Assembly: GCA_003427395.1 (NCBI GenBank)
Contig: BFEA01000021.1
Coordinates: forward strand, 3,853,064 to 3,917,063
From: Chara braunii
Lineage: Eukaryota > Plantae > Charophyceae
Direction of reading: 5' to 3'
DNA length: 64,000 bases
The notes under the pieces were generated by a model. That model had not been told where the DNA came from. It saw only the letters and a list, made by a program, of their open reading frames with translations, and did not search any database. Positions 1,266 to 51,495 of this stretch are shown piece by piece. The position numbers and the translations under genes were made by a program. Within the stretch, counting starts at the first letter, position 1, and every line of letters starts with the position of its first letter.

Positions 1266-1749
1266 GCGGCATCAAGGGTCGTAGCGGGGTAATTACTCAA
1301 GTGGCGGGCAGGCTGGTACCACACCAAGCAGACGTAGATGTGGCGGATACTCGACCCGGAGGCTGAATAGGGGAAGACAAAGACCGAAATTCTTTAGAAC
1401 ACCCAGTACCGGAGGGAAGACAGGCACTGGATCAAGTCTCAGTGCGTGTCATAGACCTACCTGACACAATCATCAGCCCAACTGACCCTTCGACCTCTTC
1501 TGTCGAGGGGTATTACTACTGATCCTAATCACCACGTCACGCATCATAATAACGCGCGTGCATTCTTAAGAAAATTTTCTTACGAATTTTCCCCCCGGCC
1601 TCAGTGGTCGAGGATTTCTCTTCTAGTGTCACGCCAAGCGTGCACACCCCTCTTATTTCCAGACTGGCTACGTCATGGTAGCTGATGCCGCCATCGTGCC
1701 GAATGCAAAGACATGGCAAAATACCCTTGTAAGGGTATTTTGTCCGACA
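1266..1749 (-). repeat. Element A 3' LTR remnant (U3 start)
   Basis: 484 bp colinear with 24743-25226 (about 96% identical by eye count); ends ...AAAATACCCTTGTAAGGGTATTTTGTCCGACA. Confidence 0.9.
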
Positions 1750-2577
1750 GTATCCCAGACCTCATTAAGCGACGTGCCCGTCGCTTGGAGACTATATGCA
1801 AATAAAGGTGTTTTCTGACAAGCAATTTGTCAAATCCGAATACTGGAATGAAATGTGGTTTCAGGATGGACGTCGTCACCTTACTTTTCATTATTACTGC
1901 CGGAATTTTAACCCGGGTCTCCCACATAAATATAATGACTGGAAGTGGGGATACTTGATCTGACTATTTGCTTGTCAGAATCCACGAAGAAAACATCACT
2001 TTTATAAAGATTGTCAAGGAATTTCTGCAAAAGAATTCATAAGACTCAAAGGAGTTTATCCATGTCGTAGCATGGTCTCAAACAAAAAATGTTCAATCAA
2101 TCCAGTTTTTGAAGCTTCACAAACTCATCAAACTTTCACATGAAATACAGATCCGCCCGTTCCTCTATCACCTCTTTAGATCTCAACAGAGTCTAGTAGT
2201 GATAGACGAAGGGAGATCTTATGTTACAAGAGACTCAACCAAAGACAAAGGCCCACACGCAATGTGACAAGTGCGTCGTGTTCACCAGCTCATCCCCCTG
2301 AAAGATATATAAATACAAGTATGTTACAGAGTCAGATCATCACTCACCTCTACTATCCCTCAAATACCTCTCATGTCCTTTCCTATACTACTTCCTATGC
2401 TAAGTCCCCTTATCTAAATGAAAAAACAACACAACATGTCTCATACTTTTCCTCTGTTTTACTGAATGAAGAAAACACATACCCCATGCTCTAAATTAAT
2501 TCTCTCCCATATTTCATAACTTGTTTTACGAGCCAATACAAGTCATGATTTACTCAGACATATCTACCTACTATCAT

Positions 2578-4356
2578 CTAGAAATCAATCGGCAGCCCCA
2601 GTATCCTGTGGAGCGCTACCCTGCCTCCCTCAGGTATCCTGGGAATGATCGGTCCCGTACTGACCACCAATCTCTTATGACTATCATATCTGGCTTTTCC
2701 TTCCTTGATATAAATTGCCAGAATGGAACACTCATCCCTGAGATGTCCTTCCTGAGTGCAGAAGAAACACCTCTGTCCAACCATGCTAGGCTTGATTCTC
2801 TTTATGTCTGGCTGGATTGAAGTCTCAGCCTGATCCTCAGCCCCCTTTGGTCAACCCAACTCAGATTCCCTCTGCCTTTTGCCCTGTCTTGGCAGAGGCA
2901 CAGCCACACTCTCACTTACCTCCTTTTCTGGTGCAGGAGGCTCTTTCCTCTTCTCCTCAGTCTGTACCCCCTTCTCTTCACCCTTCTTTCTCTCCACCAT
3001 CTATGCGGCTTCCTTTTCTTTCCCTTGATGGCTCAGTCTGAGTCCCTCCATTCCTTTCAATATTTCTCCCCATCTTTTCTCCCACTCTTGTCCCAACTTC
3101 TTCCTTTCTGAGATTTCATTGTCCAGGTCCAGTCCTAGCACACTGACCTAAGAGCCCAAGCCATCCATCCTTATTTTCATCCTTCCTATCGTGGTCGCTT
3201 CATTCTCCAACTTTCTGTCGCTCATAGTCAGAGCGACCCTTAATTGACTCACTTCTTTCTGTAATTCCTCCTTCCCTTTCTTCAATCCCTTCATTTCTCC
3301 CCTCATCTCTTTCATATCTCTTATCAACTTTTCCACCTGGGCATCCCTCTCATCTTCCTTCCTTCTTGTCCCACTTGCCTCTTCCCTTTCTCTGTCTTCA
3401 ATCGGCCCCTCTTCCTCAGTTCTCTTGTCCTTGGGAGCCTCGCCTCCTTCCTGGATCCTCTTTCCTTCTCCAGCCTCCTTTACTCCTCTCTCCTTTTTAC
3501 TAACCCTTTCCTGTACCTTTTTCCTTCCACTCTCAATTGCCCTTTTCTTTCCAAGTTTCTTCTTTCTTGGTACCATACTTGCCCTCATGCTTCATTTCCT
3601 CTCTTCCGCTGCCTCCTCCTCTTCCTGTTCATCTCACTCAGCCTGCTCAGATCCTTTGCTGTTGCTCTTCGGGGAGGCCCTCGTTTTGTTCTTCAGCCTT
3701 TCCAGAGGCACCTCATCTTCCTCTTCTTCATTCTCTGCCTCTTTCCCCTGTGGTTCAACCATCTTTCTTCCAATCCATAACCCCCTTTCTTGCAGCCTTT
3801 TCTTTCTTGTCTGATCCTGTCTGGCCTGGGTGTAGGCCATCCACAATTCTGTCGTTATTCTCTTCCAGGTCCGACTTCCTTCCACAATTCCTTTGACTTC
3901 CTCCTTTTCACTCTCTGTTGATCTTGCGATCAACTGTTTCTTCTTTTCATCCTTGTTCCACCCGCCTCTCTCCGCGGCCAGCTGCAAACTCTCGATAAAG
4001 TCCCCCAGATTGGTTTCATCAAACCTGAAGTCATCCTCTACATCATCCCTTGGGAAGACCCCCATGTCCTTCCATAACCTCTCCTTGCATACTTTTCACC
4101 TCATGCACCCTGCCACCACTCCTTCAAACCTCCTCTTGTAGATTCCTGCTCCACTCACATTCGCAATCTTCTCCCTGTCACCCCATTCTCTCCTGAATGC
4201 GTACTCTTCAAGGTCTCGCAAAAAAACTCGCAGACCGTCTCCAACCCTGTAAACGGGCAACTCGTCCAGATTCCTTGAGACTCTCTGATCCCTCCTCTGC
4301 CCTCCCTTTCTCAAGGCAGGTCCAGAGGGCCTTGCCACTGCTCCTCTCTGCGCCAT
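2578..4356 (-). pseudogene. Element A ORF3: second Gag-like protein (2x capsid-like domain, charged/coiled-coil linker, CCHC zinc knuckle), broken by in-frame stops
   Basis: ORFs 4096-4356, 3634-4065, 3148-3588 and 2578-2784 are all in one frame. Motifs LPVYRVGDGLRVFLRDLEEYA..W and FRFDETNLGDFIESLQLAAERGGW..TW; C-terminal CFFCTQEGHLRDEC. Confidence 0.75.
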
Positions 4357-4494
4357 GGCCTCTTCTTTCTAAGGGTCACGCCTGCACATAGAGAAGGAGC
4401 AAATGACAAGTACGAGGGTCAGATTATCACCAAGGCAACATTCCTTGTTAAACATAAGTTGATAATGTCCTCCTTTATCAGCTACTTACATACA

Positions 4495-4511
4495 CGCATA
4501 TATGTATACTC

Positions 4512-4542
<31 letters not shown>

Positions 4543-4712
4543 CTTACATGAGCGTATATATATACACATATCCTCACTTATACCCCTTTGCATCCACTTG
4601 TGTTCACATACACACATATATATATGTATGCATGTATGTATCCATATATGTATGAGCATGATGTTGGGCAATTGGGTACATACCTGCATAAGAATTGATA
4701 CACATATACATG
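4495..4712. repeat. (TA)n/(CA)-rich microsatellite between integrase and ORF3
   Basis: Direct inspection. Confidence 0.85.
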
Positions 4713-4759
4713 CCTAAACACCTTCCCAATCTATCAAAGTTTTCCATATCGTAGTTGAG

Positions 4760-7700
4760 GTTACCTCTTCTCTGACTCGGAACTTCTTCAGTCTAGATCC
4801 TGAGACCTAGTCCTTCCTTGGAGTCCCATCCATCTCTTCTAGCTCATATGCCCTATGAAGTCCCTGCTTCCTGACTTTGAATGGTCCTAGCCACCGTTTG
4901 TCCAATTTCCACGACCACTGCATTTTCAGAGAGGAATCGTAGAGTAGTACTGTCTCGCCAACTTGTAGAGGTTGGAGTCTTACTCTAGGTAGCTTGTCCC
5001 ACCTTTCCTTGTCCTTTCCCCTGCTGTCTGCAACGTTCATGGATGCTTCCTGCACCCTTTCTTCAGTGACGCTGATCTACCTTGCCCTAAGATCTAGCAG
5101 TTCCTCCAAAGTCAAGTTGTTCTCCAGGTCCTGCCTGCGCCAAGTTTTCAGGAAGCTTTCAATAGGAAATGTGGCGTGACGCCCATACCAGAGTGTCGCA
5201 GACGCATGTCCGGTCGTCCTTTTTATAGTAATGTTCTCCACAAAGAACACTGTTCTTAGGAACTTTGGCCAGAGATTCGGCTTTCGACTGGTCCATTTGG
5301 CCAGTAAGTTAGTAATTGTGCTATGGCCTCTCTCAATTGGTGCATTCGCTTGTGGATGTGTCCGAGTCGTATAATTACCTGTGACCCCCAATTCCTTGAG
5401 CAACTCCTTCACTTCCCCACACGTGAGCTCAGACCCCCTGTCCATCGTAAACTCCAATACGAAAGGATATCTGAGATAATATTCCTTAATACAATCCGTC
5501 AGCGTTGTCCCGGTCTTGTTCCTGATCGCTCTGCCATCCACAAATCCTGTAAGGTTGTCCCTTGCGTCGAATATATAGTTATATCCTCCAAGACCTAGTG
5601 ACATAGCCAATAGATCCAGGTGAACAACCGCCCCTACTTCCTTGATATATCTAGGATGCAGAGGTTCCTTGTACATGATAGGCGATCGAATTTGACAGGG
5701 TACACACGACTCACAGTATTTTCGCGTCATCTCAAACGTTCCTTCCCAGTAGTAGAGCTTCATTGCCTTCTTATAAGTAGCAGCAAAACTCCGATGTCCT
5801 CCGACTATCCCATCATGCAATGCAGTTACTACGTCAATCTGACGATTCCTCCCACATACAACCCGTCGCGGCGGCCCCCTCTTGTCCCTGATGAACAAGT
5901 GGCCACCTCTTACCACATAGTGGTCTCTCATCCTTAGAGTCTTCTCACTCACTTCTCTCTCTCTTTTATCTCCTGAGAGAAGCAACCCCATTTCCAGGAA
6001 AAATCCATCGCGCTCTTCCTCCCTCAATTCTTCTGAAATCTCCTCTTGTTCGAATTCTCCTTCCTTTTCCTCATCAAATTCATAATCGTCCCCAATTATT
6101 ATCTCGTCCGCTTTTACCACCCCTCTTTCATCATTCGCTAGAACTTGTAATAGCGAATTTGTCAGGTAGTACATTCTTCCCATCATGGCTACCTGCTCGT
6201 CAGCCTGTTGGACCCCTGCTTCGATTGTTAGTGGCTCATCCATTATCCTATAGTTCTCTGCCAGAGCCAACTCCATCATCCATTCCGTATTTCTCTCGTC
6301 CTAAGAGTCCTCCTCCTCTAATGGTGTGAGTATCAGGGAAGGTTCTCTCATAAATTCGGGAGGCGGATGCCACATCGGATTTCCTCTCCTCATTTCCTTA
6401 CTCTCGACAAATATGAACCAACAGTTCACGTGAGTATGCATGTCTTCCCCTTCGTTCAAAAACCCGTCTACCAGAGGTGTTTCTTCATTAGATTCTTCTT
6501 GATTTCCCCACTCAATTCTGCTCATGCCGTCCGCCCTGTTCTTGTTCCCAGGGATCCGTTCTAACTGGAAGTTGAACATCCAGATATAGGTGAGCCATCT
6601 AGCTATGGTTGGATCTGAGGGCGAGAAGTTCTTGAGCAAGTACACAAGCGCCCTTGGATCGATCCTGAGTACAAACCTCCTCCCAAAAAGGTAATGCCTA
6701 AAGATCCTTAGGCAATGCAGGACTGCCAAGGCTTCTCTTTTGAACTGTGAGTAGTTCCTTTCTGTTGAGTTGAGCGTTCGGCTTTCAAACCTCAGCGGCC
6801 TCTCCTTTCCTTCGCCGTCTGCCTGAATCAAGATGCCTCCCAGGGCGTTTGGCCCAACGTCAGTTTCGACTATGAAGGGTCTTTCCATAGTCGCATCGAA
6901 GTCTGGTACCCCTAGTACCAGACCTCCTTCTCTGAATTCCTTCTTCAATTCTTCCACCACTTCTTCTTGATGGTTTCCCCACTCCCATTCTTGATCCTTT
7001 CATACTAACTTCTTAACGTGCTCTGTTTTACTAGCAAATCTTTCTATGAATCTCCTCCAGAACCCACAGGTACCAAGGAAACTTCGAACTTCACCCACAT
7101 TTCTGAAGGGAGTGGGCCATTCTAGGATCTTATTGGTCTTCTTCTTATCAGGGCGCCGACCATGCTCGTTGCAAATGTATCCTAGAATGGTTACCTCCTT
7201 TACGTAATGTCTCGACTTCACTCCATTGGCGGTGAGGTTGTACTCTTCTAGTAGAGATAAGACTTCTCTTAACCCTTGAACATGTTCTCATACAAACCTT
7301 CTCACCTCTGGAGCCACTTCGGATTCATCCTTCTCAATCGGCCCCTTAACTGCAAGATCATCTATGTACGGCTTAGTGATTTGAGGGTTGATTGTTTGCA
7401 TAACCCTGATCATGCTCCGTTGGACCATGGCCACAACATTGGTCCTCCCTTGCGGCGCAACATTCATATGGACCAATCCCCTTGGCGTGTGCATCGTTGT
7501 GATGGGACGGTCTGCCAGATAGATCTGGAAACTGATCGTATCCGGAGTAGAGGTCGATGAGGGACACAATCGACCTACCTGCACAAGCTTCTGACAACTG
7601 GTCGGCGTTAAGCAAACCTTCTGCATCCCTTACAATTACCGCGTTCAGTCGTTGGAGGTCTTGCACCCATTTGAGTACCCCATTTGGCTTTACAAAACAG

Positions 7701-8182
7701 AACCAGGGAGAGGCATACGGTCCACTGGAGTACCCTGCCACATCCGTGCGGATTTTTCCATCTAGGTACTCTACCACCCTCCCGCGATCCTCGGGGTTGG
7801 GATACTTAGCCCCTCGGACATTCAATGGTTCGTGAGGTACAATATGGATGCGGATCATTTCTATCTTGTCGACATCCAACCTTCCACGCTGATCATCGTT
7901 AAAGGCATATGCCACATGCTTTTCTCGTATCAGCTCCTTCACTAATTCTTCCTCTTGACTTGTCAGAAACCCAGGTTCCACTATTATTAACTCCTTCTCA
8001 GTCTCATCGTCGATACGACAAGGCTCATTCTGGATGCCTCCCCTCATTCGCTGTATTAGTTCCCTTTCCTGATCATAATACACCCCTTCTTCTTGACTTA
8101 CTAGAACTGGCACAGGGTGACTCTTCTTATCTACCGTCTTGTACCTCCTTTTGGAGCCCTGCTTGAGCCCACCCCTAAAAAA
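4760..8182 (-). pseudogene. pol: Element A pol (RT, RNase H, integrase), with stops and a frameshift
   Basis: RT: LIDLYSGYDQ, PQG, YIDD. RH: FIVETDVGPNALGGIL, ERNYSQFKREALA. IN: H..GGH...CESCVPC, DLL, MDRGSE, PQANAPIERGH, C-terminal GPF motif. No chromodomain seen. Confidence 0.95.
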
Positions 8183-11100
8183 TGTTGACCCACAGCTTGA
8201 GCATTCAACGCATGCGGCACTATCATCTGAGAAGAAGAAGGCGGTCGATAAACGAGATCGATCCTTCCCCCTTCTGGATCGTCTTGGATCCTTTCTGCGA
8301 GTGCCCTGACTGCGTTCGGATCAGCCATCCTATAAGCCGATACCAGTTCCACTGCATCACTGATATTAGTTAGGCTTAGTACAAACCCTTTAGCTTCCTC
8401 ATCATCTGAGTCTTCCCCTCCTTCTTTCCATTTCAATTCTCTCCTCCTATTCTCAGACTTTTCGAATGTGTAGGATCCGACATTGAGCCTATTTTTCGAG
8501 CTGTGTGGGCCGGTATTCCTACAGGTGATCACCTCAAAGTTTCCACAGGAAGGATCGCACAAGATGACGAATATAGTGCCGTCATGCTTGTTCATAATGA
8601 GTGATTCAGATCTGCACAGGAACGCCCTTCCCAACAATACTGGAAGGTCCAAGCTGGGCATGACGTAGAAGCACGTATGTACCTTGACTCTTCCTATTTC
8701 TATCACTACATTTGACGCAACCCCCGTATATCCGGTCTTGCCGCTGGCTCCATTGAGAAACCCGTAGTCGTTTTCATATACCTCTAGTCCTAGTTTTACT
8801 GTCGTTTCTCCGTTTATAATGTTCATCTCTGCCCTGGTGTCAACCATCCCAGGACACATCTTCCCCTTTATCATAATATCAATGGACCCTGTTCCCACGA
8901 ATTCCAGTCCATTTTGCTTCCTGCCACGCTCCAGTTAGCCTCTTTGGGAATTAAATCCCCCATTCGGACCGAGGCTACTTTTCGGCGTGATAACCTAGCC
9001 TTCACCATCTCTCTTAACTTAGGAGCCGAAGCGAGGATTTCTTTCAGGTTTAGTAGTTCATTGTGCCCCTCCAGCAGTTTATTCACCAGGCCTTCCAGAT
9101 CCACCCCTTCTTCGATCGAGGTTTGGTACTTTCTCTTCTTGCTTGGTCTCGTATCCCCTTTTGATCTTCCTTCCTCAACTTCACCTTTCCTTCTCTTAGC
9201 CCTTATCTCCGCCTGCCTTTCTTCTTCCTCCCTAATCTTCTCATCCTCATCTTCATCACCCTCTACCGTGATAGGCGGTTCTTCTTCTGCTGGCTGGGAA
9301 GCCTGAGCTTGTTCCTTTTGAGGATTCCCTCCTGCGGGTCTTCTTGTTGCGAATGGAATTGTTCCTCTTACACTTCTCTGACTTCCACTGTTCCTTGCGG
9401 CCATATTGGCTTCAATATTCTCGAGTTGGGTTCATTTGGCCCATCTCCTGATCCCCCGCGCCCCATGGTAAATACTTTTGGGCATCCAGCTCCTTCTCTT
9501 CCTGCTTCTACACATATCTCTTGAAGCCTCAGATGTAGCCTCTGCATTTTGTCTACCAAGTCTTCCATCCTATCGAACGTGTCTCTGACGTTGGCCCTAA
9601 CGTCTTCCTCCTCTGTTTCTTCTTCCACCAGAGGCACGTCTCCCTTGTCTTCTCCAATCCCCATCCTACTCACTTTCTCTTCCAAGTTAGTTATATCTCC
9701 CACCTGCACTACTGGTTCTTCCCTTTCCTGCCAAATTCGGAACATCCCTGGTGCGTTGGGACCAAGCGCGGCCACACGAAGAGCCTCTTCCCTTGTGCCC
9801 CCTGGAATCTCAGGATCAGTCACCCTACCATTTTGGTCGAACACCTCGCCTTCCATGTTTGATATTATGAGCCCTTCACACTCGTCAAGCTTCCTAACAT
9901 GACATCGTTTTACCTTGTGCCCTTTGATCACGCAGTGGGTACAGACGCATTCACTGTAATCAATCCACCCCCTGCCATATCCTTGTCCGTTTCCTCTACC
10001 ATACCCCCTTCCATAGCTTTGGTCGTATCCACGACCATATCCTTGCTGGTATTCCTGCTCGACTAGATTTGCACCCCCTTGGGGCTGCCCCCAGTTCCTA
10101 CCTTGGTTTCCACCGCCTCTGTTACCTGCTCCTCGTTCCCCTGGTCCCTGATTTCTACCACCATTCCTACCTCTTACATGTTCTTATCCTTGTCCTTGTC
10201 CTTGGGACCTGTTCTGGTTTTGGCCACCTTGGCGACTAGATCCTGCTTGGTTCTGCCCTGTTAGTTGAAGTTGTCCCGTGTTTTGGTCTCCTCCCAAATT
10301 CTGATTCTGGGGTAACATGGGATAAGGACCCTGCGTAGGCCATGGTCCTACCGGGAAATACCCAGGCCATGCTCCCATAGGCGGACCCACGGGCCATTGA
10401 CCATATTGAGCTGTGCTTGTTGACGGCTCCTGTCCATATTGGACTATCGCTTGTTGAGTTACTTGACCTTTTCTCGACCATTGTCCTCCGATAGCGATAT
10501 TTTTAGACTTTCTCTGACTCTTGGTTAGTTTGTCCGTTCCTTCTTGTCCTCCATCTTCTGCCTCTTCCTCTCCGTCTTCCTCTTCCTTCCTTCTCTTTCC
10601 TGACGGCTGTGTCACTGTTAACACTTTCGATGGTGTCACTCTTTCCCTAAGCTCTTTTATCTCGTTTGCCATATTGCTCAGCACTCCTCCTAGTACACTA
10701 TCCGTTCCTTGGATCGTCCCTACTGCCTTTCTTTTCTTTCGTTCGACCTTGATTTGGTGATGGAACACTTGGTCCATGTCTCCCGCCATGATGTTCCTCT
10801 TTATGGTTTCCCAGATTGTCTTTCTCCCGGCGGCTCCCCCTCGGGTTAGTTCCATCGCCTCATCCCCAGAGAACTTCCCTAGAAATATGACGCACTGCAT
10901 TTCTTCAGACAGTCCTGGGACCCTCTCCGCTGTCTTTTCGAACGTGTTGGCGAACGCCCTGATCGTAGTGAAGTCATCTCTGTTCATATTATAGAGATGG
11001 TTAATTGTGAGCAGGCTATCTCCTAGCTTAAACGTCTTCTGCATGCCCTTTTTAAACTCAGCCCAATCATTGTTGGACTTTCTCACTACCTTTTCCACGT

Positions 11101-11332
11101 CAGAGGTGCATTCCCACCATACATACTCGAACAACTGGGCGAACTTCTCGGCCGGTGTCAATTGGTTGAAGATTTGCTCAAGTAGTTCTAACCAATGAGT
11201 GACCCTATCACCTTTGAAAGGGAATATGTCTATCCTCGGTAGGTTAGATCTCTTTATCGTTCTTTTCTCTAGTAACTTGATGATTTCCGCCGCGGTGATT
11301 GCCGGCCCTCCGTTGGCGCTGGCATCGCCCAT
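8131..11332 (-). pseudogene. gag: Element A gag-protease, frameshifted by decay
   Basis: Capsid-like IFPFKGDRVTHWLELLEQ..DWAEFKKGM (10184-11389); zinc knuckle CTHCVIKGHKVKRC at ~9900-9945; aspartic protease GMVDTRAEMNI...PVLLGRAFL (8131-8898). Confidence 0.9.
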
Positions 11333-11496: not shown

Positions 11497-12275
11497 TCAA
11501 CCGAGTATCTCCTCTAGGAGCACCCAGTCCCCGTGCCAAAAGCTTCTAACCATACCAAATAAAGAAGGGATTTCATCTATAAATTCTTCAATACATGCCT
11601 CCCGGCAAAGATTGCGGCAGTAGGTCGAGAGATCTTCCAAACGATAGATGCGTAGATACGTGTTTACCACACATAGTACGTTATAGAAATCCCTATCCTT
11701 TAGTTTCGGTCCCATTTCTAAGTATAGACGGTAAACAACTTCCGATGCCACGGATTCGAAGCCCATCTCTGGAACAGATCGGGGTGCGAGTACTGCTCGT
11801 CCTATATTCTGTATCCCCCAAAATGCTTCATCAATTATGAAGCTCGGAAGCGTGGTTTTAATGTACCTTGTTGGATACACGAACTCATCGGCCCACTTCG
11901 CTTCGATTGACTTTATAACCTCTCCTTCTTTTCTCCAATACATCCTCCTTAAAAATGCGTCAAGGGTCATTCCGGCTATCAATACGTACCTAAAGACGGG
12001 GCGACTTTCCCCTATCGCAAGATCGATCGCGTGTGCCCTCCAGAGAAGGACCGGTAGATAAAGTGTCACTTTTACTATTGTCTGTCTTTCCCCCGTGGTC
12101 CACTCATTTTCTATCCAAAGGAAAGCTTCCTGTCCTACCGGTTCCCACACCACGAGTCCAACTCTTCATCCAGATCTATCGTTCTCTTCGGCAGTGTCAT
12201 CTTAACCCCTCCTTCCTTTGGCTCGGGCAGGTTGATCAGAAAGCTCCGATCAGCGAACCACATTAAAGGATTCAT
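11497..12275 (-). pseudogene. Extra ORF upstream of gag, copy 2 (unknown function)
   Basis: 218-aa ORF 11497-12153, paralogous to 12487-13089; upstream ATG at 12275 preceded by an acceptor-like TGTAACAG. Confidence 0.6.
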
Positions 12276-12486: not shown

Positions 12487-13089
12487 TTATCGTTCCCTTT
12501 CTTCGATCAAATGCCCTATCTCTAGGTATATGTAGTATATCAGCAGAGGGGTAGATGCATGATATTCTCTCTCAGGTATTGCCATTGCGGCTTCCGCAAC
12601 CCTCTCCACTCGGGTCCTCCCTCCGAAGGTTGCATTTACGATGAACATGGGGAGGGTCCCTCTTAGATACGCTGCTGGCGGAAGAAATTCACTCGCCTTC
12701 CTTACCCTCACAGTTCCTATGACCCTCTCAAATTCATTCATACTAGCATCTCTTCTTCTAGATTCGAGCGCTGACTCTGCTATCGATAACAGTCTCGAGA
12801 GAGATCGGTCAATACCTAGTACTAAATTTATTATGATAGCTTGCAGATTTTCTGATGAGATGTACAGGGTAACCCTCTCTACGGCACAGTTTTCGCCTCT
12901 AACCCATCCAGACTCAATCCAGATGAAAGTTTTTTCTCCTACAGAAATCCTCCAACAATACCCTGTCTCTTCATTCTCTTCATGGCGACTGCGAAGATTC
13001 ATTATAAGACCATGCCTCATTTGCACGGGCTCTCTGATCGTGATTTGATATCGGACAGAAGCCATCTCCCTTTCGTCGATATACTCCAC
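12487..13089 (-). CDS. Extra ORF upstream of gag, copy 1 (unknown function)
   Basis: 200-aa ORF; WIESGWVRGE..VERVTLYI, EFLPPAAYLRGTLPMFIV and YYIYLEIG align with the neighbouring ORF. Confidence 0.6.
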   Translation of the reverse strand: MEYIDEREMASVRYQITIREPVQMRHGLIMNLRSRHEENEETGYCWRISVGEKTFIWIESGWVRGENCAVERVTLYISSENLQAIIINLVLGIDRSLSRLLSIAESALESRRRDASMNEFERVIGTVRVRKASEFLPPAAYLRGTLPMFIVNATFGGRTRVERVAEAAMAIPEREYHASTPLLIYYIYLEIGHLIEERER

Positions 13090-13889: not shown

Positions 13890-13909
13890 GATCCCCGGCA
13901 ACGGCGCCA
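13890..13909 (-). promoter_or_regulatory. Primer binding site, tRNA-Asp (element A)
   Basis: Plus strand GATCCCCGGCAACGGCGCCA equals the 3' end of plant tRNA-Asp(GUC) plus CCA; 2 nt from the LTR end. Same PBS type as Athila elements. Confidence 0.93.
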
Positions 13910-16949: not shown

Positions 16950-16986
16950 TGATATAAATAATATTAATAATAATGATAATAACATC

Positions 16987-17035
<49 letters not shown>

Positions 17036-18745: not shown

Positions 18746-18794
<49 letters not shown>

Positions 18795-19937: not shown

Positions 19938-19968
<31 letters not shown>

Positions 19969-21431: not shown

Positions 21432-21486
<55 letters not shown>

Positions 21487-21909: not shown

Positions 21910-21973
<64 letters not shown>

Positions 21974-25226: not shown

Positions 25227-26177
25227 CCGGACAGGTCACCTCGGTACTGGTCCGACTCCAACCGATGTCCCAGAGGACCCAGCCTGGCCGCGGAGGCTGC
25301 CGGCCCCTATGCATGTCAGAATGCCTGGCTTCACCCACCGGTTCCGCCATCAAGCGCGGCTCGCTTTTCGATGGCTCATGGAGGTACCCACCCCGATCCC
25401 GCGCGCGCATACGGGCGCAAAAAACAAAGGAAATAAATAAATACTAGTAACATAAATTTTGAAAACAAATAAATTATACACGGATAGATACATAAACCCC
25501 CACAGAGCGTGCGGCGATCAGGCGGAAACCGCGGCCCCCAAGATTGCAAAAGGCGAGGGGGATAGTCCCAAAGGCCCATCAACCCCTCAAGCCTTTCCGC
25601 CGCGCTCCTCCGCTCCCTTACCGCACGCTCTTAGCCTCGATCCCTGCACCTCCGCCGCAATAGTCCAATGTCGTAACCGATAGGGCTAAGCCCAAGCCTG
25701 GTACTAGCCGGCGCGACCTCCCATATAAGGTGGTACCGCGCGGTGCTCCGGGCCAAAATACCGCTTCGGCCGTCCTTTCACCCCACATTTGTACCTGCGG
25801 CCCCTAGGTGCCTGTGCCGGGCCACCGCCCCGCGCTGTGGCCATCCCGTGTGCCTACCGGCATGTCAATCCTACCGTCGGTCACGCGCGCCGACCAAAAA
25901 CGGACTCTCGGCCCCTAACCAATCCCGTGGCCTGGTACGGGCCGTACCACGATCCGGGTCGGTCGGCTACCCCGGCCGCCTGCTCAATCAGAAAAATCAC
26001 ATGCGCGCCCTAAAATTGCGCACCCACGTACTCCCTACCGGGACAAGGCATACCTTTGCCTATGTGCTGGCGACCCTCGCATTTCCCGCACGGGCACTCA
26101 GAATCCAGGTTGACCGAGTCTTTCTGTCACTTGCAAAAACCAGGGTGGATACCCTTGTAAGGGTATTTGCGCCGACA
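25227..26177 (-). repeat. Element B 3' LTR remnant
   Basis: Colinear with 51884-52834; ends ATACCCTTGTAAGGGTATTTGCGCCGACA. Confidence 0.92.
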
Positions 26178-28231
26178 GCTTACCGGACCATATTAAGCGA
26201 CGTCCCCGTCGCTCCGCCAGATCAGAAAGCTATAAATTTCTTCACACTCCAAGTGCTGACAAGATTAGAACCAATCCGATTAGCCGACAGACTCAGGGTT
26301 GAGGCCTCCATCAAACCATGCCAACACAACTATATGGGTCCCCATTGTCCTGACATGAGGACGCTGGTGTATTACGCATCAATACTACAGCATAAGTTCC
26401 AAAGGCCCTCAAACCATCCTCTTCCCCTTCGTCCTAGACAACCGTCGGCTCCTCGTTGGGTGTCCCAGTTAGCCTCTATCTCGTAAGTAGAGCCATAACT
26501 AGGGACGCGGGCTTCGAATGGGACCTATGAAGGCATTCTTTGCCTTCTTCTAACAAATTCCTCTCAAACAAAATACACACGTATAAGCTGGTAGCCTCTC
26601 TCGGCCTTTTCTGCAGTCTAGTACAAAAATGTCAGGTCCCCATCTGGGCCCACCGTAGCCTGGCTGATCGGGCCAGGTCTACGGCCCACCACATTGTTAT
26701 CTTAGCGGCGGTATCCTCCCATTGGTTATACGATGATAGGCGCTCTTCCTGACAATCAGTCAGTCAGGGTTTTCCAAAAGACTCGACTCTTATCCCGCGG
26801 GGTAATTTCTCTGGGGCGGGCAACTCCCCTTAAACTCTTACCTCGCGGGCCCGCAGCCAGGTTGTGCCGGCCAGCAGCCATCCACTAGGGGTTGCGCCCA
26901 GGTGGCACTAAACTTTACCGTTAGCTTGGTATTCCCTCAAATATGTCTAAGGATTAGCACAGGTGGCCCGACGGGGCATCACAAACAATTCACGGGCCGC
27001 TGCGGGACTACGCAGGGGTCTGAAGGCATTTACCGACCCTCCCATAATAGGCACGACACCTTTCGCTCAATCACAAACAGTCCCCTTGCCGGATCCACAA
27101 GGCCGCGGCTCCTGACTTGATCAGAGCCAGTAGTCGCCCACCCTGAGGCATCTCTCGCCCTTTTCAAACGGCTCAAGCAAACATGGTTCCCCCCTCGTCA
27201 GGCTTTATCAACACAAACATTGCTTTCCATACCATTTAATTTTTTCCCACCCTTACTCGACGGAGGGTGTTTCTTACAAAAGATTTCACGGTCATCCCTT
27301 CTCTGTATGGGATGACTCTTCACACGACCTCTCCCAACCCATGAAGGGGCCTTGATAATAATGCAATTCCCACCTTGCAGAACCATGAAGGGGGTCTCAG
27401 TCACCAAACAACTCAAACTGAGGGACCCCCTTCTGGGTCCCTGTACAACTTAGACAATCAATATTTGGTGTGGCCTAAACATGCAAATTCTTAAATCCAT
27501 CAATCCCGTAGGATTCTCACAATTTTTCACAAACAGGCCGCACTCCCCCTCCTTATACTCTGCCCTCTCGCCCGCTTGTAAGCAGACCGCACGAGTATAC
27601 CGGAGGGTAGACAGCTTCACTGTTTACACAATCATACATACGAGGCGTATCCTGTACACCTCCCACACAAAGCCAATCATACATTAAGACAAAGCCACAC
27701 ATGTAAGAGTGATAGTGGTCGTCACAAGACAAGTCTCATAGAGTCTAAGCTCATGATACGCTCAGGGAGTGGAACGCCTCCCTCAAGACCCAAACACAAA
27801 CACCCAACTCAAACTCTGTTCACCCGAGCATGGCTCCCGACCCCACTGTACACCCGCGGAATACACTCGGGGACACAACACCTGCCAAAATCTAATGGGC
27901 GCCTAACCCCCTGTCTCACCTAGCTAGGGGAACTCATACCCAAGTCTCCCTCAAAACTCAAGTAGTCTATGCACCGCGAAATCAAAAGTGGACTAAACAG
28001 CCCCATGTGTCCTACGGCCGATTCTCATGCCCTAAGCCATAGCCTATGAAAGAAAAACTCAAAGAACCTCAATCAACTATATCTGAATAAGCAGGCAGGG
28101 ACTCATCCTACCACCTCTGAAGTATGCACACATCTAGGGCCCCCTCTGCCAACTAAACATATGTACACCTCCAACCTGCCCCCCTGTGTACCAACTACTC
28201 TAACCGTAGTGACACATAGACAGACCAATCC

Positions 28232-31191
28232 CTACTTACACAATTCCTCTTGGTTCTGCCTATACAACTGAGCCCTGCCCCCATCTGTAGCTCGCTCTAC
28301 TATCCTGCCCTGCCTGTCGTAGAACTTGCCGTTGGACTCCACAACGCGCCCCTCGGCTTTATCCTCGAGGAGTTCTGGGCAGTCCACGGCTCTATGCCCT
28401 TCCTCCTTGCACCAAAAAGAGGAGGTATCGTGCCACGTGGCAGTCTTCTTCTTTCTCCCCTGCGAACTCGATGCCGAAGGCGTCCCCATGGTCTCAGTAC
28501 TCACCTCATGACACGAGGGCAATCCCAGATGGCCCTGAGGTCCGGGCTCCATAGCCTCAGCACCCTCACACCTTCGTGCGGCTGTGCTCACCGGCCTGCA
28601 GTCTGGCATATCTAACCCTCGGGGGCCCTCCTCATGAGGCCCCTCTGTCACCACCACCTCATCCCCACATGCTCCTGACGGCTGAGAGCCCCCCATCGCG
28701 GTGAGCTCACTCATGACCTNNNNNNNNNNNNNNNNNNNNNNNNNNNNNNNNNNNNNNNNNNNNNNNNNNNNNNNNNNNNNNNNNNNNNNNNNNNNNNNNN
28801 NNNNNNNNNNNNNNNNNNNNNNNNNNNNNNNNNNNNNNNNNNNNNNNNNNNNNNNNNNNNNNNNNNNNNNNNNNNNNNNCTCACTCATGACCTCCTGCCG
28901 CTGCCCTCCTCATGAGGCCCCTCTGTCACCACCACCTCATCCCCACATGCTCCTGACGGCTGAGAGCCCCCCATGGCGGTGAGCTCACTCATGACCTCCT
29001 GCCGCTGCTGTTGCCGCAAGTCAAGCCCTCCTAAGCTCGTCCCCGTGGCCCAGGAGCCCAGCTCCGCCCTCAACTCTCCCAACCTCGGGGCATGTTCTGG
29101 AGCATCGAGTCTCTGAGGCCCCTCCTGTGGCGTGCCTATCCCCATGGCTGCCGCCAACTCATGCAAACTCGACCCTCTCCTCTCCGTGGACATAGCCATA
29201 AGTGACTCTTGTGCGCCACCCTCCTCTCTGGCCGTGTCCAAGGGCACCTCCTCCACGGGCTCAGCCTGCTGAGGGACCTCCACCGCTGCTCCCTGGCTCG
29301 GCGAAGCGCGCATCCCTCGGCCCTGGCCATCGGCACCGGCTCGTCCCGCCTGACTAGCCTCCCAGGCCGCCGAGAGCCTACCCACAACGGCTGCCATCTC
29401 CCCAAATCTCCTCTCCCACTCAACCTCTCTGGCCTGGCTCCTCGCCTTTTCCTCGGCAAGCCGAGTAGTCAGGTGCTCTACCTCCAACTCTTTGACCCTG
29501 AGCTCGTTGCTGAGTAGGTTATACCACTGGAAGGACGTAACTGCCATCTCACATATCCTCCGATCCATGCGCTCGATCGCCATCCTGGTCGCAGAGAATC
29601 CCACGTCTCCCATCTCCCTCAACTCACTCGTCCCCTCGCCTGTCGGTCCTGCCTCTCGTGGCCTCTGGCGGGCTGCATCCCTCTGGCTCTCATACCTAGT
29701 CCACAATTCGTCGTGCTCGCTCGACTTGGGCTCGACCGGCGGTGTCGACTCTATTCCCGCTGCCTCCATCTCAGCCTGCCTTGCATGTATTTCATCCAGA
29801 CGGATCCGCACTCGGGCGGACTTCTCTTCGCGGGTTTCTCTCGGGGTTCTTCTCACTTGCGGCCCCTGGCCCCCTGGAGTCGACGCCTCCCCCTCCATCC
29901 CTTCGCTCGCGCATGGCACTACTAGCGGTAACTCTGCTGGAACGGGATCCTCGATAACCGGGCTCTTGGTCACATGCGTGGCCGAGGGCAAGTCAAGGGG
30001 CGCCTCCATCCTCGCTCTCTCACACACTCCCTGATTCTCCGCCTCTGCCTCCTGCTCACGCATAGTGCTGGCCTCAGGGGGAGACTCCGAAATCTCCTCG
30101 CTGCCCGGTTCAGGAATCCCCTCTGGCCATGAACGCTGTGCTGGCTCTGGAGCTGGGGAGCATGGAGGGGTATCGTCCCCAACCGTGATCACCTCCCCTT
30201 CCTGAGGCCGTACCGGATCCGGCCGCTCGGCTGCCATCTCAGGATCCTGTGGCTCCTCTTGGCCCCGCATGTCTGTCTCCGTCTCGGTGTCCAAGGGTTC
30301 CTCCAATGGCACATAGTACGTCGGCTCAACTAAGCCCTCCCCCAATCGTGAGGCCTCCCATCGAGATGCATCCAGATGAGTCGCTAAGCTTCGGAATGGC
30401 GTCTCTCTCGGTATATCCAGTTCCTGCGCTGATTGCAATGGCGAGGGCGGTCTCAACTCCTCGCTCGTAATCCGCCGAAACTCCACCGCCCGGAGGCCAC
30501 AAGCAGGGAGCGACTCCTCTGCCAATGCGGGCCCTACGGGTTCATCCTCCCGCTGGGCAGGGGCTCCCCTCCTCTCTCTGGCCAGCCTCGCCTCTCTCGG
30601 TGCCGGTTCCCTTGGCCTCTTGCTTCGCCATCGCCTCTCAACTCTGGGCTCGTGCCTCTCGTGCTATGGCCGTCCGAACACCCTCCTGAGCTGGGCTTGA
30701 CAGTCCTCCCAGTCTCGAGCCCTCTCCCGAATCTGTTTGGCCACCTGCCTCTCTGCCCCCCTAGTCCAGATGAGTAGGGCCTGCACCCATTCCTCCTGCG
30801 CAATTCCCAGACTCAGCATGTAGTGCTCATACGCGGGGATGAACTCATCCGCGTTCCCCTCCTCCAATCGAATGGGCATGCCATCACGCCCTCTGGGGGA
30901 AGCTCTCAACCTCTGCATCCCGGCCTCCACGTCTGGCCAAGTCAGGGCCTCCTCACATATCTGAGCGACAGGCTCCTCGAACCGCCCTACACCCCTCAAG
31001 TGGTAGATCCTCTCCGCCACTGACCACCCTCTCTGTGTCGCATGATCCAGATATACGTCCAGGAAGAGCTCAATGTTGTCGTCATCGAACTCAGGCGTAG
31101 GCTCCCTCCTAGGCAGCCCATGCTGCTCGCCCCCTCCTGCTATCCTCTGGAGTCCCTGGCGTGGCCGTGTGTCCCTCCCGCCCCTCTGCAT
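28232..31191 (-). pseudogene. Element B ORF3: second Gag-like protein (2x capsid-like domain, long acidic/Pro-rich and coiled-coil region, degenerate CCHC knuckle)
   Basis: 30664-31248 (PEFDDDNIELFLDVY..RGW..TW; RLEEGNADEFIPAYE..DW) is in frame with 28885-30525. C-terminal SFWCKEEGHRAVDC lies after the N gap. Confidence 0.75.
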
Positions 31192-31349
31192 GACTGGCTT
31201 CGAAAAGTCAGACCTGCACAACAGGCGAAAGACAACAAACAGGCACACAGCAGGGTCAGCAACCGAGTCATTGGCCTAGGAAAATCCCACATACTCTCCA
31301 CACCCATCCACCTCAATCACCCACCTATCCAATCATTCGACGAGGGTAG

Positions 31350-32967
31350 AGCCTAGGCGGGACTCTATTCCTAACGAGGTCTCGTGGTGCCTTACCTATT
31401 CCCTGGCCACGAACTTCAGCCTTGTCCCCGATACCCAATCCTGCCACCCTGCCCCATCCAGCTCTTCAATTTGGTAGACCCCAAACTCGCCACACCGCAC
31501 GATCCTATAAGGTCCTAACTATTGTTTGTCTAGCTTCCTGGACCATTGTTTTTCCAACGAGGAGTCATACAGCAATACCACATCTCCAACCTTCAACGGG
31601 TCCTTCCTTATTCGGGCCATTTGGTCCCATCTCATCTTGTCCTCTATACAACTTCTCTCCACCTGGCCAGCGGCCTCTCGTAATCTCTCCTCAGCGGCTT
31701 CCACCTGCCGCGCCCATATATCGAGCAGTTCTTCGAATGCCAGGTTCACTTCGAGGTCCTGGCGCCTCCACGTCTTCATAAAGCTTTCTATGGGAAAGGT
31801 GGCGTGCCTTCCGTACCATAGCGTGGCTGGCGCATACTTGGTATTCCTTTTCACTGTAACATTTTCCACAAAGAATGTCGTTCTCAGGAATTTCGGCCAC
31901 TGGTTGGGCCTCCCCTCAGTCCACTTAGCCAAGAGGTTCGTGATGGTACTATGCCCTCTCTCCACAGGAGCGTTTGCCTGGGGGTGCGCAGCAGTAGTAT
32001 AGTTCGCTACAACGCCATACCCCGCAAGTAAGGTCCGTACCTCGTTACAGGTGAATTCCGACCCCCGGTCCATCACCAACTTTTTGACGAACGGATAGCG
32101 CAGGTAGTATTCCTCGATGCACCTTGCCAAAACTGGGCCAGTCTTTGTGCGAATAGCCCGACCGTCAACGAACCCGGTAAGGTTGTCCCGTGCATCGAAG
32201 ATATAGTTACTTTCATCCTCCCCGAGTGGCATGAACAACAGGTCCAGGTGTACGACCGCACCCACTTCCCTTTCCAGCCTGGGGTGCAGAGGCTCCCCAG
32301 GCCTTTGCGCTGACCTTTGTTGGCAAGGTACATAGGACTGGCAGTACTTGATGACCATAGTCAGCATTCCATCCCAATGGTATAACTCGCTTATCTTCGT
32401 GCACGTGGCACTAACCCCTTGGAGCCCCCCTGCTATACCATCGTGTAAGACTGCTATGACATCAATCTGCCGGTTCCTCCCACATACGATCCTCATGGGG
32501 TTCTCAACCTGTCCCTTTATAAACAGGTGGTCATCTCTTACTACGTAGAGGTGTCTCATCTTCTGGGCTTTTTCACTTGCGTCCCTATCCCTTATCTCGC
32601 ACGACAGGAGTAACCCTAACTCTCGATAGATCCCGTCATACTCCTCAGCACGGAAGGCCTCCCTAATCTCTCCCTCTTCGAACTCGTCGTCCTGGCTCTC
32701 AGGAATAAGAAGTTCGCCCTTCTCGGAACCGGTTGCGCTCCTCTGGTCAAAGTTCCCCTGCAGGAGCGTGTTGGTAAGCAAGTACATTCCTCGCATTAGT
32801 TGCTCATGCTCCTCTACCTGGTTGGACCCTCCTCTATCGTCCTTACTTCCTCCGCTAGACTATGTGTCCCTGCGAATGTCAACCTCATCATCCAGCCTAC
32901 ATCCCTACTCCCCCACGGATCTTCTTCCTGGAAGGGTTTAAGGACCAACTCCTCCTTCTGCTCGTAC
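31350..32967 (-). pseudogene. pol: Element B integrase (3' part of pol)
   Basis: ORF 31519-32796: HLDLL, MDRGSEF, HPQANAPVERGH; strongly similar to the A integrase. Confidence 0.95.
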
Positions 32968-42947: not shown

Positions 42948-45002
42948 GGCCGACTTGTCGTTCGGGCCTGCGCCATCGCAGGGTCCCCTTTCCTTCCGGG
43001 AAGCCTATAGATTAGCTCCACTTCTCCCACCTGAGGGCTCTCCAAGACCTACTCCCTCAATGCCTTTATGGCTTCAGGGTCCGCCATATCATGCGCCACC
43101 ACCACCTCCATTGCCTTATTCACATCATTAAGGCTCAGGGACAATACCTCGCCCGCTCCTTCCTCCTCCTGCTCCTTCCGGAGTCTCCGTCGCGCATACT
43201 CAGACTCCTCGAAGGTAAAGGAGCCGAGGTTGAGCCTGTTCCTCCCACTTCCGGGCCCTGTGTTCCGACACTTGATGATTTCGTAATTCCCGCAAGCCGG
43301 ATCGGACAGAGCCAGGATCATCGTCCCCTCATGCCTGTTGAAGACCAAGGTCTTCGTTTGGCAGAGGAACGACCTCCCTAGAAGGATAGGGTGGTCGACA
43401 TCGGGCATGACGAAGAAGCACATTCGCGCCCTTACCCTCCCGATCTCCACCATCACATTAGACGAGGTGCCGCAGAAAATGGCCTTGCAGTTGGCGCCGT
43501 GCAGCACACCATGGTCCGAATGATCCACCTCCAGCCCCATCATAGTCGCGTCCCGCTCCCGGATGATATTCATCTCCGCGCCCGTGTCCACCATTGCAAT
43601 GCTCGGCTGGTCCCTCACCTTCAAGTCCACCAACCCGCACGCCACACATTTCCAATCCATCCTGGTGCCCGCCTCTATCCACTCTATCTCCCTGGGCAGA
43701 ATTGAGCTCACGTGGACGTTGGGCACTAGCCTCCGCGAGAGCCGCCCCTTTAGCTCGCCACGGAGTCTAGGCGCCGACGCCAGGATGTCTTTTAAATTCA
43801 TCAGATCATTGTGGCCTTCCAAGAGTTTGTCCACCATTCGCTCCACGTCAAAGCCCTCTTACAGCCAGACTGCGTACTTCTTCCATTTTGGCACACCATC
43901 GTGCAGGCTCGGCTCCGCTCCTCCCTGAATCCCTCTCTTCTTGGCCCTCTGCTCAGCTCGCCGATCTTCTTCCTGGCGAAGCCTCTCATCCTCTTCGTCA
44001 TCACCCTCATCTTCCTCTTCTTGAACCTCTACCACTTCTTTCCTTCGTTCAGGCTCAGGCTCCTTTTGAGGAGACGCCCGACTAGGTGCCTGGCTGGGCC
44101 CTTGACTGGTGGTAGCCTTACTTTGGGCCCTAGTCTGCGCGGCCTGGGGCACCCTTCCATGTGACGTAGGGGGCCTGAAGGTCATCTCTGACCTAGGACC
44201 TGCCCCGGCCATCGCCACGCTTGGACACCCTTGCGGTCCTGATGATGACTCCGGGCCGGACCCATAGAGCATTACCTCAGGAAGATTCATTTCCCATTCC
44301 CGGGTCTCTTCGCACATCACCCTTTGCCGTTCCTTATACCTGCCAACCTGTGCTCCATCCTTTCCAGGATGGTCGAGGCTGACTCTCTCACCACCTCCTT
44401 TGCAGCCTCATTTGGTGCTGCTCCACCTGGTCCAGGCTCCCTTCTTCCACTCCCTTGTCAATGGTTGCCCAGGTGAGCCTCTCACTCCCTTCCCCATACT
44501 TGGTCAGCTCTGTGGCCTCCGAGCCCATAAGCAGCCTAAAAAATGTGGCGCACTGTGCCTCCTCAGAAATCCCGTGCACTTTCCTCGCCCTTTTCTTAAA
44601 CTCGTGCACGAACGCCCCAATGGTAGAGAAGTCTTACTTGTTCATGGCCTCCAATTCGGCCATGGTCAACAGGCCGTCCCCCAGCCTGTACTTCCTTCGC
44701 ATTAGATCCCCAAACTTTGTCCAACTGCCACCAGCGGCATCCACAACCTTAGTTACTTCCCGATGGTGACTATGCAGGACGTACCTCAGGACCCGCTGGA
44801 GCTTGACCTCATCTGACAGTCCCACTAGCGCCTGCTCTGTCAGATCCAACCAGTCAGATACCCGATCCCCTTTGAAGTGAAATGTCTCGACCTTTGGAAC
44901 ATTGCTCGGCGCCCTCTCGCGCTTGTCCAAGGCATCGATGAGGTCGTCGAGGGTCACAAGACTCCTCCCACCGTCCGCCATCTCCTCTGGCATTTTGGCC
45001 AA
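42896..45002 (-). pseudogene. gag: Element B gag-protease (internally deleted, stops)
   Basis: ETFHFKGDRVSDWLDL..SWTKF, similar to A Gag; protease AMVDTGAEMNI...PILLGRSFL. Confidence 0.9.
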
Positions 45003-45328: not shown

Positions 45329-45347
45329 ATCCCCGGCAACGGCACCA
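45329..45347 (-). promoter_or_regulatory. Primer binding site, tRNA-Asp (element B)
   Basis: ATCCCCGGCAACGGCACCA (one mismatch to the tRNA-Asp 3' end), followed by CC and TGTCGAGCGC. Confidence 0.92.
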
Positions 45348-51477: not shown

Positions 51478-51495
51478 CCTTCCCCGCATGGCCCT

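What the first reader, a model, noticed from the sequence alone, without database searches (positions are those of the whole stretch)
2578..4400. A second Gag-like gene in the env position (element A; homologue in B at 28232-31191)
Downstream of integrase, both families carry a long sense ORF with two tandem units resembling the N-terminal capsid region of their own Gag (F..D.(L/V)..(F/W)L..(L/Y)E....W...EK......W), a coiled-coil/acidic linker and a terminal CCHC knuckle. The residues after the knuckle (B ORF3 DKAEGRVVESNGKFYDRQG) echo those after the true Gag knuckle of A (DECEGLIISNMEGEVFDQNG), arguing for an ancient gag duplication. Athila-type elements with the same PBS carry an env-like ORF here; I saw no transmembrane segment in these ORFs. 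Possible roles are an accessory capsid, an RNA chaperone, or a Gag-derived copy-number or restriction factor analogous to Ty1 p22 or Fv1 (inference).
Basis: partly seen in the sequence, partly recalled or inferred. Interest (0 to 1): 0.9.

Follow-up and report, generated by a model that had tools for sequence, protein, structure and literature searches.

The report
Second gag gene after retrotransposon integrase
Jumping genes in a stonewort alga carry, where retroviruses keep their envelope gene, an extra gene predicted to be a remodelled copy of their own capsid gene; it is likely made from a separate RNA and likely acts as a helper for the element's RNA and particle.

Summary
Confirmed. Both Ty3/gypsy elements carry a sense ORF3 after integrase (A 4356-2578, one frame, 6 stops; B 31191-28232, broken by an assembly gap). 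Every named homologue seen is a Chara braunii gene model. ORF3 lies last in 135 of 135 models that also hold gag, pol or upstream-ORF pieces, and its distances track those of IN, RT, PR and CA (Spearman 0.77-0.86), so it is inherited with the element. Its N-terminus is two tandem four-helix lobes. Their best structural matches are Arc, dArc, Copia, Ty3 and retroviral capsid lobes (top Z 8.3-8.4, moderate). Lobe 2 matches the elements' own Gag N-terminal domain (84-93%), not the C-terminal domain. The C-terminal knuckle and tail match Gag's. There is no transmembrane segment. Both ORFs follow a splice-acceptor-like site. In two of three stranded RNA runs, sense reads cover ORF3 but not pol (low depth, one study, no junction seen). 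Gag origin is about 90% likely. The function is untested: most likely an accessory RNA/particle adaptor, with lattice poisoning as the main rival. 'Athila-type' rests only on the PBS. Ten literature searches found no such gene.

The parts
2578..4356 (-). ORF3 of element A (592 codons, 6 in-frame stops, no frameshift)
4054..4266 (-). A ORF3 lobe 1 (predicted four-helix capsid-type lobe)
3820..4035 (-). A ORF3 lobe 2 (matches own Gag CA N-terminal domain and dArc N-lobe)
3022..3339 (-). A ORF3 coiled-coil-like segment, after a charged linker (27% D/E, 26% K/R)
   Evidence: coiled-coil-type Pfam hits below cut-off in homologues; read from sequence
2581..2769 (-). A ORF3 CCHC zinc knuckle and tail
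4382..4422 (-). Predicted branch point, pyrimidine tract and 3' splice acceptor, 25 nt before the A ORF3 ATG
   Evidence: splicing inferred, no junction read seen
28888..31191 (-). ORF3 of element B, main part (768 codons, 1 stop); lobes at 30667-31107
28232..28717 (-). B ORF3 C-terminal piece with degenerate knuckle and tail, beyond a 160-N gap
31214..31260 (-). Predicted branch point and 3' splice acceptor, 22 nt before the B ORF3 ATG
   Evidence: inferred
9368..11332 (-). True gag of element A (CA 10727-11254, knuckle at 9943)
4780..8934 (-). pol of element A, broken: protease, RT, RNase H, integrase
44394..44912 (-). True Gag CA of element B
31519..32859 (-). Integrase of element B, directly upstream of ORF3
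13892..13909 (-). Primer-binding site of A (B: 45330-45347); tRNA-Asp type by recall
1266..1749 (-). Start of A's likely 3' LTR, 96% identical to 24743-25226 (start of likely 5' LTR)
   Evidence: LTR ends not delimited
25227..26178 (-). Start of B's likely 3' LTR, 95.6% identical to 51884-52835; interrupted by element A

Best explanation
ORF3 is a third gene that lies after integrase in a group of Chara Ty3/gypsy retrotransposons, is predicted to descend from a gag gene (two capsid N-lobes, a long linker with a coiled coil, one zinc knuckle), is likely translated from a spliced subgenomic RNA, and likely serves the element as an accessory adaptor. In that role the knuckle and tail would bind the element's RNA, the coiled coil would oligomerise, and the two N-lobes would dock on the Gag lattice or on host peptides, so that genomic RNA is exported, trafficked or packaged. 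Shown: position, sense, family-wide inheritance with pol, knuckle, no transmembrane segment, sense poly(A)-selected reads from family copies. Predicted: capsid fold and Gag ancestry (about 0.9). Inferred: splicing (about 0.75), RNA binding and the helper role (about 0.45).
For: Fold: AlphaFold2 models with pLDDT 85 and 90 give two four-helix lobes. VIA: ranks 1-29 for A and 1-10 for B are all retroelement capsid chains; best dArc1 Z 8.3 (rmsd 3.3, 75 aligned) and Arc Z 8.4 (rmsd 2.7, 67 aligned). Foldseek on B: Arc N-lobe probability 1.00, rmsd 1.3 over 57 columns, E 0.14. Profile search: dArc2 N-lobe E 0.002. Lobe 2 versus own Gag NTD 92.8% and 84.4%, versus CTD 0.7%. Knuckle plus tail versus Gag's 94.2% for B type. 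Inheritance: last in 135 of 135 gene models with other element pieces; distances correlate with IN, RT, CA, PR (0.84, 0.80, 0.77, 0.86; 0 of 999 permutations each). Four clusters only 17-55% identical to each other keep the gap-free two-lobe pattern, which points to long selection on the protein. A separate 1.8-2.9 kb gene kept by lineages that amplified (193 hits) fits a benefit to the element (inference). Expression: in runs X5 and X7, sense depth 0.7-2.9 in 5 of 5 bins over 2208-4497 and no sense read in 13 of 13 bins over 4498-10451. Acceptor-like sites lie 25 and 22 nt before both ATGs.
Against: No function was tested. Structural scores are moderate: no Foldseek match reached E 0.001, and the tool warns that Z under 8-13 is common for helical bundles. 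The best sequence-profile hit in the PDB was an unrelated RSC8 chain that scored through two weak duplicate stretches. Lobe 1 does not match the own Gag NTD directly (about 1%). The A-type tail alone matches the Gag tail at only 2%. The A and B coiled coils are not demonstrably homologous (1.2%). RNA evidence is thin: 67 reads laid in each of X5 and X7, one study, 6-13% of each run read, none at 99% identity or more. Oligo-dT 3' bias, or one host-driven copy, could give the same picture, and run X6 has low reads on both strands across pol. No junction read was listed. ORF3 RNA without gag-pol RNA fits an inhibitor as well as a helper.
Confidence: 0.5

Rival explanations
1. ORF3 is an element-encoded assembly inhibitor. 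Its N-lobes would enter capsomer rings but, lacking a C-terminal dimerisation domain, end lattice growth, limiting the element's own copies or those of competing families, like Ty1 p22.
For: Capsid lobes without a match to the own CTD. ORF3 RNA seen where gag-pol RNA is not, in 2 of 3 runs. Lattice poisoning by a half-capsid is shown for Ty1 p22/p18 and Drt2 (PMC13709905, abstract and section 3.3 read).
Against: p22 is identical to its target and specificity falls with small interface changes (PMC13709905), whereas ORF3 lobe 2 shares about 18% identity with its own Gag NTD. The families are abundant. Retaining a knuckle, a coiled coil and a costly separate gene is not needed for poisoning (inference).
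Confidence: 0.25
2. ORF3 builds a second particle or shell of its own, with the two lobes acting like the two halves of a CA, and packages or moves RNA apart from Gag, as Arc and PNMA2 do.
For: Two-lobe CA, then linker, then knuckle is the Gag order. Whole-domain alignments to dArc1, Arc, Copia and PNMA2 span both lobes. N- and C-lobes share one fold (PMC13709905 section 3.3.1).
Against: Both lobes look like NTD copies by profile. Two-lobe superpositions have rmsd 10-15 A, although lobe orientation in the models is uncertain (pTM 0.61-0.69).
Confidence: 0.15
3. ORF3 is a dispensable relic or a chance helical look-alike, carried along with no current role.
For: Both window copies are broken. 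ORF3 diverges about twice as fast as integrase. Fold scores are moderate.
Against: Gag and pol of the same copy are also broken. The lobe pattern and knuckle persist across lineages about 20% identical. Family copies are transcribed in sense.
Confidence: 0.1

Closest known systems
Sense extra ORFs between pol and the 3' LTR of plant LTR retrotransposons (Athila, Bagy2, SIRE 'env-like'; PMC7264820 parts 1-2 of 3 read; PMC6317226 passages and supplements 4 and 5 read)
   Same: Same position and sense, present across copies; Bagy2's is spliced; Athila shares a tRNA-Asp PBS.
   Different: ORF3 has no transmembrane segment and no Athila ORF-1 hit. It is built from Gag parts, and none of the 12 domain rows listed for plant extra ORFs in supplement 4 (E <= 1e-10, at least 5 elements) is a Gag domain.
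Ty1 p22/p18 and Drt2 (PMC13709905, abstract and section 3.3 read); Fv1 (recalled)
   Same: Gag-derived partial capsid protein; p22 is element-encoded and made from a subgenomic RNA.
   Different: p22 is the C-terminal half of the same gag, made by internal initiation; Drt2 and Fv1 are host-domesticated. ORF3 is a separate, diverged gene with N-lobe-like units that travels with the element.
Arc, dArc1/dArc2, PNMA2, PEG10 (structural hits; their biology recalled)
   Same: Ty3/gypsy-type capsid lobe fold; knuckle downstream in some; the Arc N-lobe is solved with bound peptides (entry titles).
   Different: These are host genes with N- and C-lobes. ORF3 stays inside a mobile element beside a separate true gag.
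Cer1 CERV (PMC10309623, abstract read); bdelloid LTR ORF3s (PMC5408684, passages read); MDG1-group sORF2 (PMC11952523, abstract read)
   Same: Accessory retrotransposon proteins; CERV and the bdelloid ORF3s come from spliced RNA; CERV exports genomic RNA.
   Different: None is described as Gag-derived in what I read; they are a novel nuclear protein, esterases, exonucleases, env-like or small membrane proteins.

Membership tests
Ty3/gypsy LTR retrotransposon (host elements) | gag, then PR-RT-RNase H-integrase order | tested here: met
   Pfam hits in this order in A and B (RT of A by BLAST)
Ty3/gypsy LTR retrotransposon (host elements) | Paired LTRs and PBS | tested here: inconclusive
   PBS found; paired TG-starting repeats of 484 and 952 nt found, but both 3' copies are interrupted and LTR ends are not delimited
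Retroelement Gag | CA lobe fold | tested here: met
   capsid chains fill the top ranks; Z 8.3-8.4 is moderate; predicted models only
Retroelement Gag | CA C-terminal domain after the NTD (sequence match to own Gag CTD) | tested here: not met
   Both lobes versus own CTD 0.4-1.0%; lobe 2 versus NTD 84-93%. By fold alone N and C lobes cannot be told apart
Retroelement Gag | CCHC nucleocapsid knuckle | tested here: met
   CX2CX4HX4C in A and in homologues; degenerate in the window's B copy
Retroelement Gag | Assembles particles and packages RNA | not testable with these tools
Plant env-like extra ORF | [quoted passage not shown] | tested here: met
Plant env-like extra ORF | Transmembrane segment | tested here: not met
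   Highest KD19 0.52-0.85 in 6 of 6 proteins
Plant env-like extra ORF | Spliced subgenomic mRNA | tested here: inconclusive
   Acceptor-like motifs and ORF3-limited sense reads; no junction read listed
Athila lineage | tRNA-Asp-type PBS | tested here: met
   Motif at 13909 and 45347; tRNA identity recalled; TatII also uses tRNA-Asp
Athila lineage | Placement in the Athila clade by RT/RH/IN tree | not tested
   No reference sequences obtainable (REXdb FASTA too large)
Athila lineage | Athila ORF-1 domain (PF03078) in the 3' ORF | tested here: not met
   No hit in 3 window translations or 7 homologues; only 16% of Athila elements carry it
p22-type self-encoded restriction factor | Sequence identical to part of the element's own Gag | tested here: not met
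   About 18% identity for lobe 2
p22-type self-encoded restriction factor | Inhibits assembly or transposition | not testable with these tools
   Needs experiment

The most novel reading that the evidence does not exclude
These charophyte elements are two-Gag retrotransposons. A gag copy moved into the env slot, came under env-like spliced expression and doubled its capsid N-lobe, giving an element-encoded regulator or minor shell protein that controls or redirects its own particles: an accessory-gene strategy built from the element's own structural gene.
Probability: 0.55. Interest if true: 0.82.

Novelty: new variant of a known kind. Interest (0 to 1): 0.72.

Why it matters
Extra ORFs after pol in plant-lineage retrotransposons are common, and their origin and role are mostly unknown (PMC7264820). 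Here the origin can be read: the element's own gag family. It extends Gag reuse, known from host domestication (Arc, PEG10, Drt2) and from Ty1's internal p22, to a separate gene kept by the element itself. It gives a natural tandem N-lobe protein for testing how the two-domain capsid arose and how lattices are regulated. It also shows that well over a hundred 'hypothetical' Chara braunii gene models contain this retrotransposon gene.

Tried and rejected
No genome was held for the window, so no copy census, no dN/dS and no LTR delimitation. Complex prediction of ORF3 with Gag CA was not available: no verdict on binding. A closer look at reads around the acceptor was not obtained, so the junction is open. 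No RNA holder was listed by index; raw-read runs were laid instead. Relatives outside Chara: none seen, but reach is limited. 120 of 193 hits were listed, all Chara. The 22 library hits are unnamed; those examined carry pieces of the same elements. The metagenome scan with the ORF3 profile confirmed 0 of 291 pattern matches. With integrase, 2 of 142 matched, and both proved chance; 0 of 96 in viral contigs. Viral fold library: nothing at E <= 0.001. Atlas: first hit 0.90 hypothetical, a Retrotrans_gag cluster at 0.86, leads only. Pfam names no family for the lobes. One search used an overwritten profile (Gag knuckle instead of CA); its 8 of 137 'exceptions' were ORF3's own knuckle; redone. One search is not used: the profile held whole proteins, so its dArc2 hit may come from ORF3. 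A single-sequence PDB search with A's Gag CA found no capsid. Rejected: nested independent element; env-like membrane protein; recent duplication of each element's own gag; homology of A and B coiled coils. Earlier findings: none returned. Ten literature searches listed no report of this gene. The library lacks most subscription journals; the Chara genome paper did not appear and was not seen.

Full report
Setting. The window holds two decayed Ty3/gypsy retrotransposons on the minus strand. A has gag at 11332-9368 and pol at about 8934-4780. B has Gag CA at 44912-44394, protease, RT and RNase H at 43858-41199, and integrase at 32859-31519. Both have the same primer-binding-site motif (13909, 45347). 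Paired repeats beginning with TG (24743-25226 with 1266-1749, 96%; 51884-52835 with 25227-26178, 95.6%) are read as LTR starts, which places A inside B's 3' LTR (inference). All named homologues seen are Chara braunii gene models: 29 of 29, 46 of 46, and 120 of 120 listed out of 193. The window is therefore most likely from that alga.

The observation. After A's integrase and about 420 non-coding bases, a sense frame runs from an ATG at 4356 to a stop at 2578: 592 codons, 6 internal stops against 28 and 36 in the other frames, no frameshift. B has the same at 31191-28888 (768 codons, 1 stop) and, past a 160-N gap with a duplicated 95-nt flank, 28717-28232. The two N-terminal regions align at about 20-25% identity. 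The layout is two units of about 72 residues, a long charged or proline-rich linker, a coiled-coil-like stretch, and a CCHC knuckle with a tail at the very end. No transmembrane segment was found in 6 of 6 proteins.

Part of the element, not a passenger. Of 174 stored proteins, 167 hold the ORF3 N-region. Of these, 135 also hold a CA, protease, RT, RNase H, integrase or upstream-ORF piece, and ORF3 is last in 135 of 135; 58 hold a true CA as well. These are automatic gene models picked for having ORF3, so they show linkage and order, not the share of elements that carry it. Summed DNA contig depth over ORF3 (258-1123) overlaps that over gag (340-1342) and pol (641-2935), though the tool says this is no copy number. 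Pairwise ORF3 distances follow those of IN (n=33, Spearman 0.84), RT (25, 0.80), CA (27, 0.77) and PR (25, 0.86), with 0 of 999 permutations as high in each; kinship drives this, which is what is being tested. The 98 full N-regions fall into four clusters 17-55% identical to each other. A and B share 62% in IN, 67% in RT and 51% in PR, so ORF3 evolves faster but keeps its pattern.

Gag ancestry. The two units are repeats of each other (95.8%, 96.2%). Unit 2 matches the elements' own Gag N-terminal domain (92.8%, 84.4%) and not the C-terminal domain (0.7%). Unit 1 alone matches neither (about 1%). A profile of 21 N-regions hits the dArc2 N-lobe at E 0.002, then dArc2 and dArc1 capsids; an unrelated RSC8 chain ranks above them through two weak duplicate stretches. 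AlphaFold2 gives two four-helix lobes (pLDDT 85 and 90; pTM 0.69 and 0.61). Against 48,161 PDB chains, ranks 1-29 for A and 1-10 for B are all retroelement capsid chains (Arc, dArc, Copia, Ty3, PEG10, Drt2, retroviral CA). The best are Z 8.3 (rmsd 3.3, 75 aligned) and Z 8.4 (rmsd 2.7, 67 aligned); the first unrelated rows have Z 4.8 and 5.5. Foldseek found nothing at E <= 0.001, but its top rows for B are Arc N-lobes at probability 1.00 and rmsd 1.3, and for A PNMA2, HIV and Arc capsids. The scores are moderate; the case rests on agreement of independent methods. At the other end, the B-type knuckle plus tail matches Gag's at 94.2%, and the tail alone at 74.8% (best of 30 shuffles 31%). The A-type tail alone reaches 2%, but A- and B-type knuckle regions match each other at 96.8%. 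In a 37-row tree all 23 ORF3 knuckles sit on one side of a 100/100 branch and all 14 Gag knuckles on the other (56 columns, rough). In a 29-row lobe tree the 9 Gag NTDs form one side (100/99) and the 11 unit-1 rows another (94/88), while unit 2 is not resolved as one group. ORF3 thus arose once, before A and B split, with the lobe already doubled. Without an outgroup, duplication and capture from a sister lineage cannot be separated.

Expression. Both ATGs follow a branch-point-like motif, a pyrimidine-rich tract and an AG acceptor, 25 nt (A) and 22 nt (B) upstream. A strict pattern that I defined after seeing the sites matched one place on both strands of the window, A's; B's fell under the pyrimidine cut-off. 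Many gene models enter ORF3 through the same few residues, so the predictor used the same acceptor; that is prediction, not evidence of splicing. In three stranded oligo-dT runs of one study, laid at 85% likeness with 6-13% of each run read: X5 and X7 (67 reads laid each) show sense depth 0.7-2.9 in 5 of 5 bins over 2208-4497 and no sense read in 13 of 13 bins over 4498-10451. X6 (740 reads) has low reads on both strands across pol, with a sense peak of 6.3 on ORF3's 3' part. No X5 or X7 read was 99% alike or more, so they come from other copies. Five reads in X5 and four in X7 leave the window's sequence right after the ORF3 stop with the same letters, which suggests one expressed locus or subfamily. 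No RNA joint was among the 15 joints listed (42 not shown). A separate ORF3 RNA is likely; 3' bias or a host-driven copy is not excluded.

How it most likely works. Origin and anatomy are well supported; the role is inferred. A separate gene that several amplified lineages kept through deep divergence most likely helps the element. The parts suggest an adaptor: a knuckle and tail for RNA, a coiled coil for oligomers, and two N-lobes for Gag rings or host peptides (Arc N-lobes are solved with bound peptides; entry titles). Made from a spliced RNA, it could act on unspliced genomic RNA as CERV does for Cer1 (PMC10309623, abstract). The main rival is lattice poisoning as by Ty1 p22 (PMC13709905, section 3.3), which fits the missing C-terminal domain but not the low identity to the own Gag. 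A second, independent shell and a relic are less likely. Binding to Gag could not be modelled.

Comparison and novelty. Sense ORFs after pol are known from Athila, Bagy2 and SIRE and are described as env-like or of unknown origin (PMC7264820, parts 1-2 of 3; PMC6317226, passages and supplements 4 and 5, whose 12 domain rows include no Gag; its sequence supplements were too large to read and may bear on lineage). Retand (PMC11963269) and bdelloid (PMC5408684) extra ORFs, read as passages, are of other kinds. Ten searches listed no Gag-derived ORF in this position; most subscription journals and the Chara genome paper were not seen. The Athila label is untested: the PBS fits, but A's Gag tail hits DUF4100, and 2 of 3 insertion junctions in the window follow an NCGN word, a preference reported for Phygy.

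Verdict. A real, family-wide, Gag-derived third gene in the env position: a new variant of a known kind. Interest 0.72.

Noticed in passing
window 12487-13089 and 11497-12165 (-): Two stop-free paralogous sense ORFs (31% identical, E 3e-26) between A's PBS and gag, with homologues in P0084 and P0092; no Pfam family at cut-off and no useful Atlas hit. Element A thus has extra ORFs on both sides of gag-pol.
   Followed up: partly
window 13300-13692 (-): A further short basic, Gly/Arg-rich frame with one stop just after A's PBS.
   Followed up: no
window 1750-1795 and 26179-26225 (-): Directly before both 3' LTR starts there is no clear polypurine tract but a short inverted repeat conserved between A and B.
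   Followed up: no
window 25226, 1266, 52835: A sits in B's 3' LTR, and another TG-starting sequence interrupts A's 3' LTR. Two of three junctions follow an NCGN word, the target preference reported for Phygy elements.
   Followed up: partly
window 13910-25226 and 45348-52835: LTR start to PBS spans about 11 kb (A) and 7.5 kb (B), with internal tandem repeats: very long LTRs or further nesting.
   Followed up: no
window 13658-15031: DNA contig depth is 10-100 times that of the internal region, and run X6 has reads on both strands: a stretch shared by many LTRs or families.
   Followed up: no
window 33901-35973 (-): hAT-type transposase pieces (Hermes DNA-binding domain, E 5.5e-6) inside element B, between RNase H and integrase.
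   Followed up: no
window 28625-28997: A 95-nt stretch is repeated on both sides of a 160-N gap inside B ORF3, probably an assembly artefact.
   Followed up: yes
window 57881-60411 (+): Inverted, diverged copies of the pre-PBS region and of an LTR start of a related element, with no ORF3, CA or knuckle profile hit there.
   Followed up: partly
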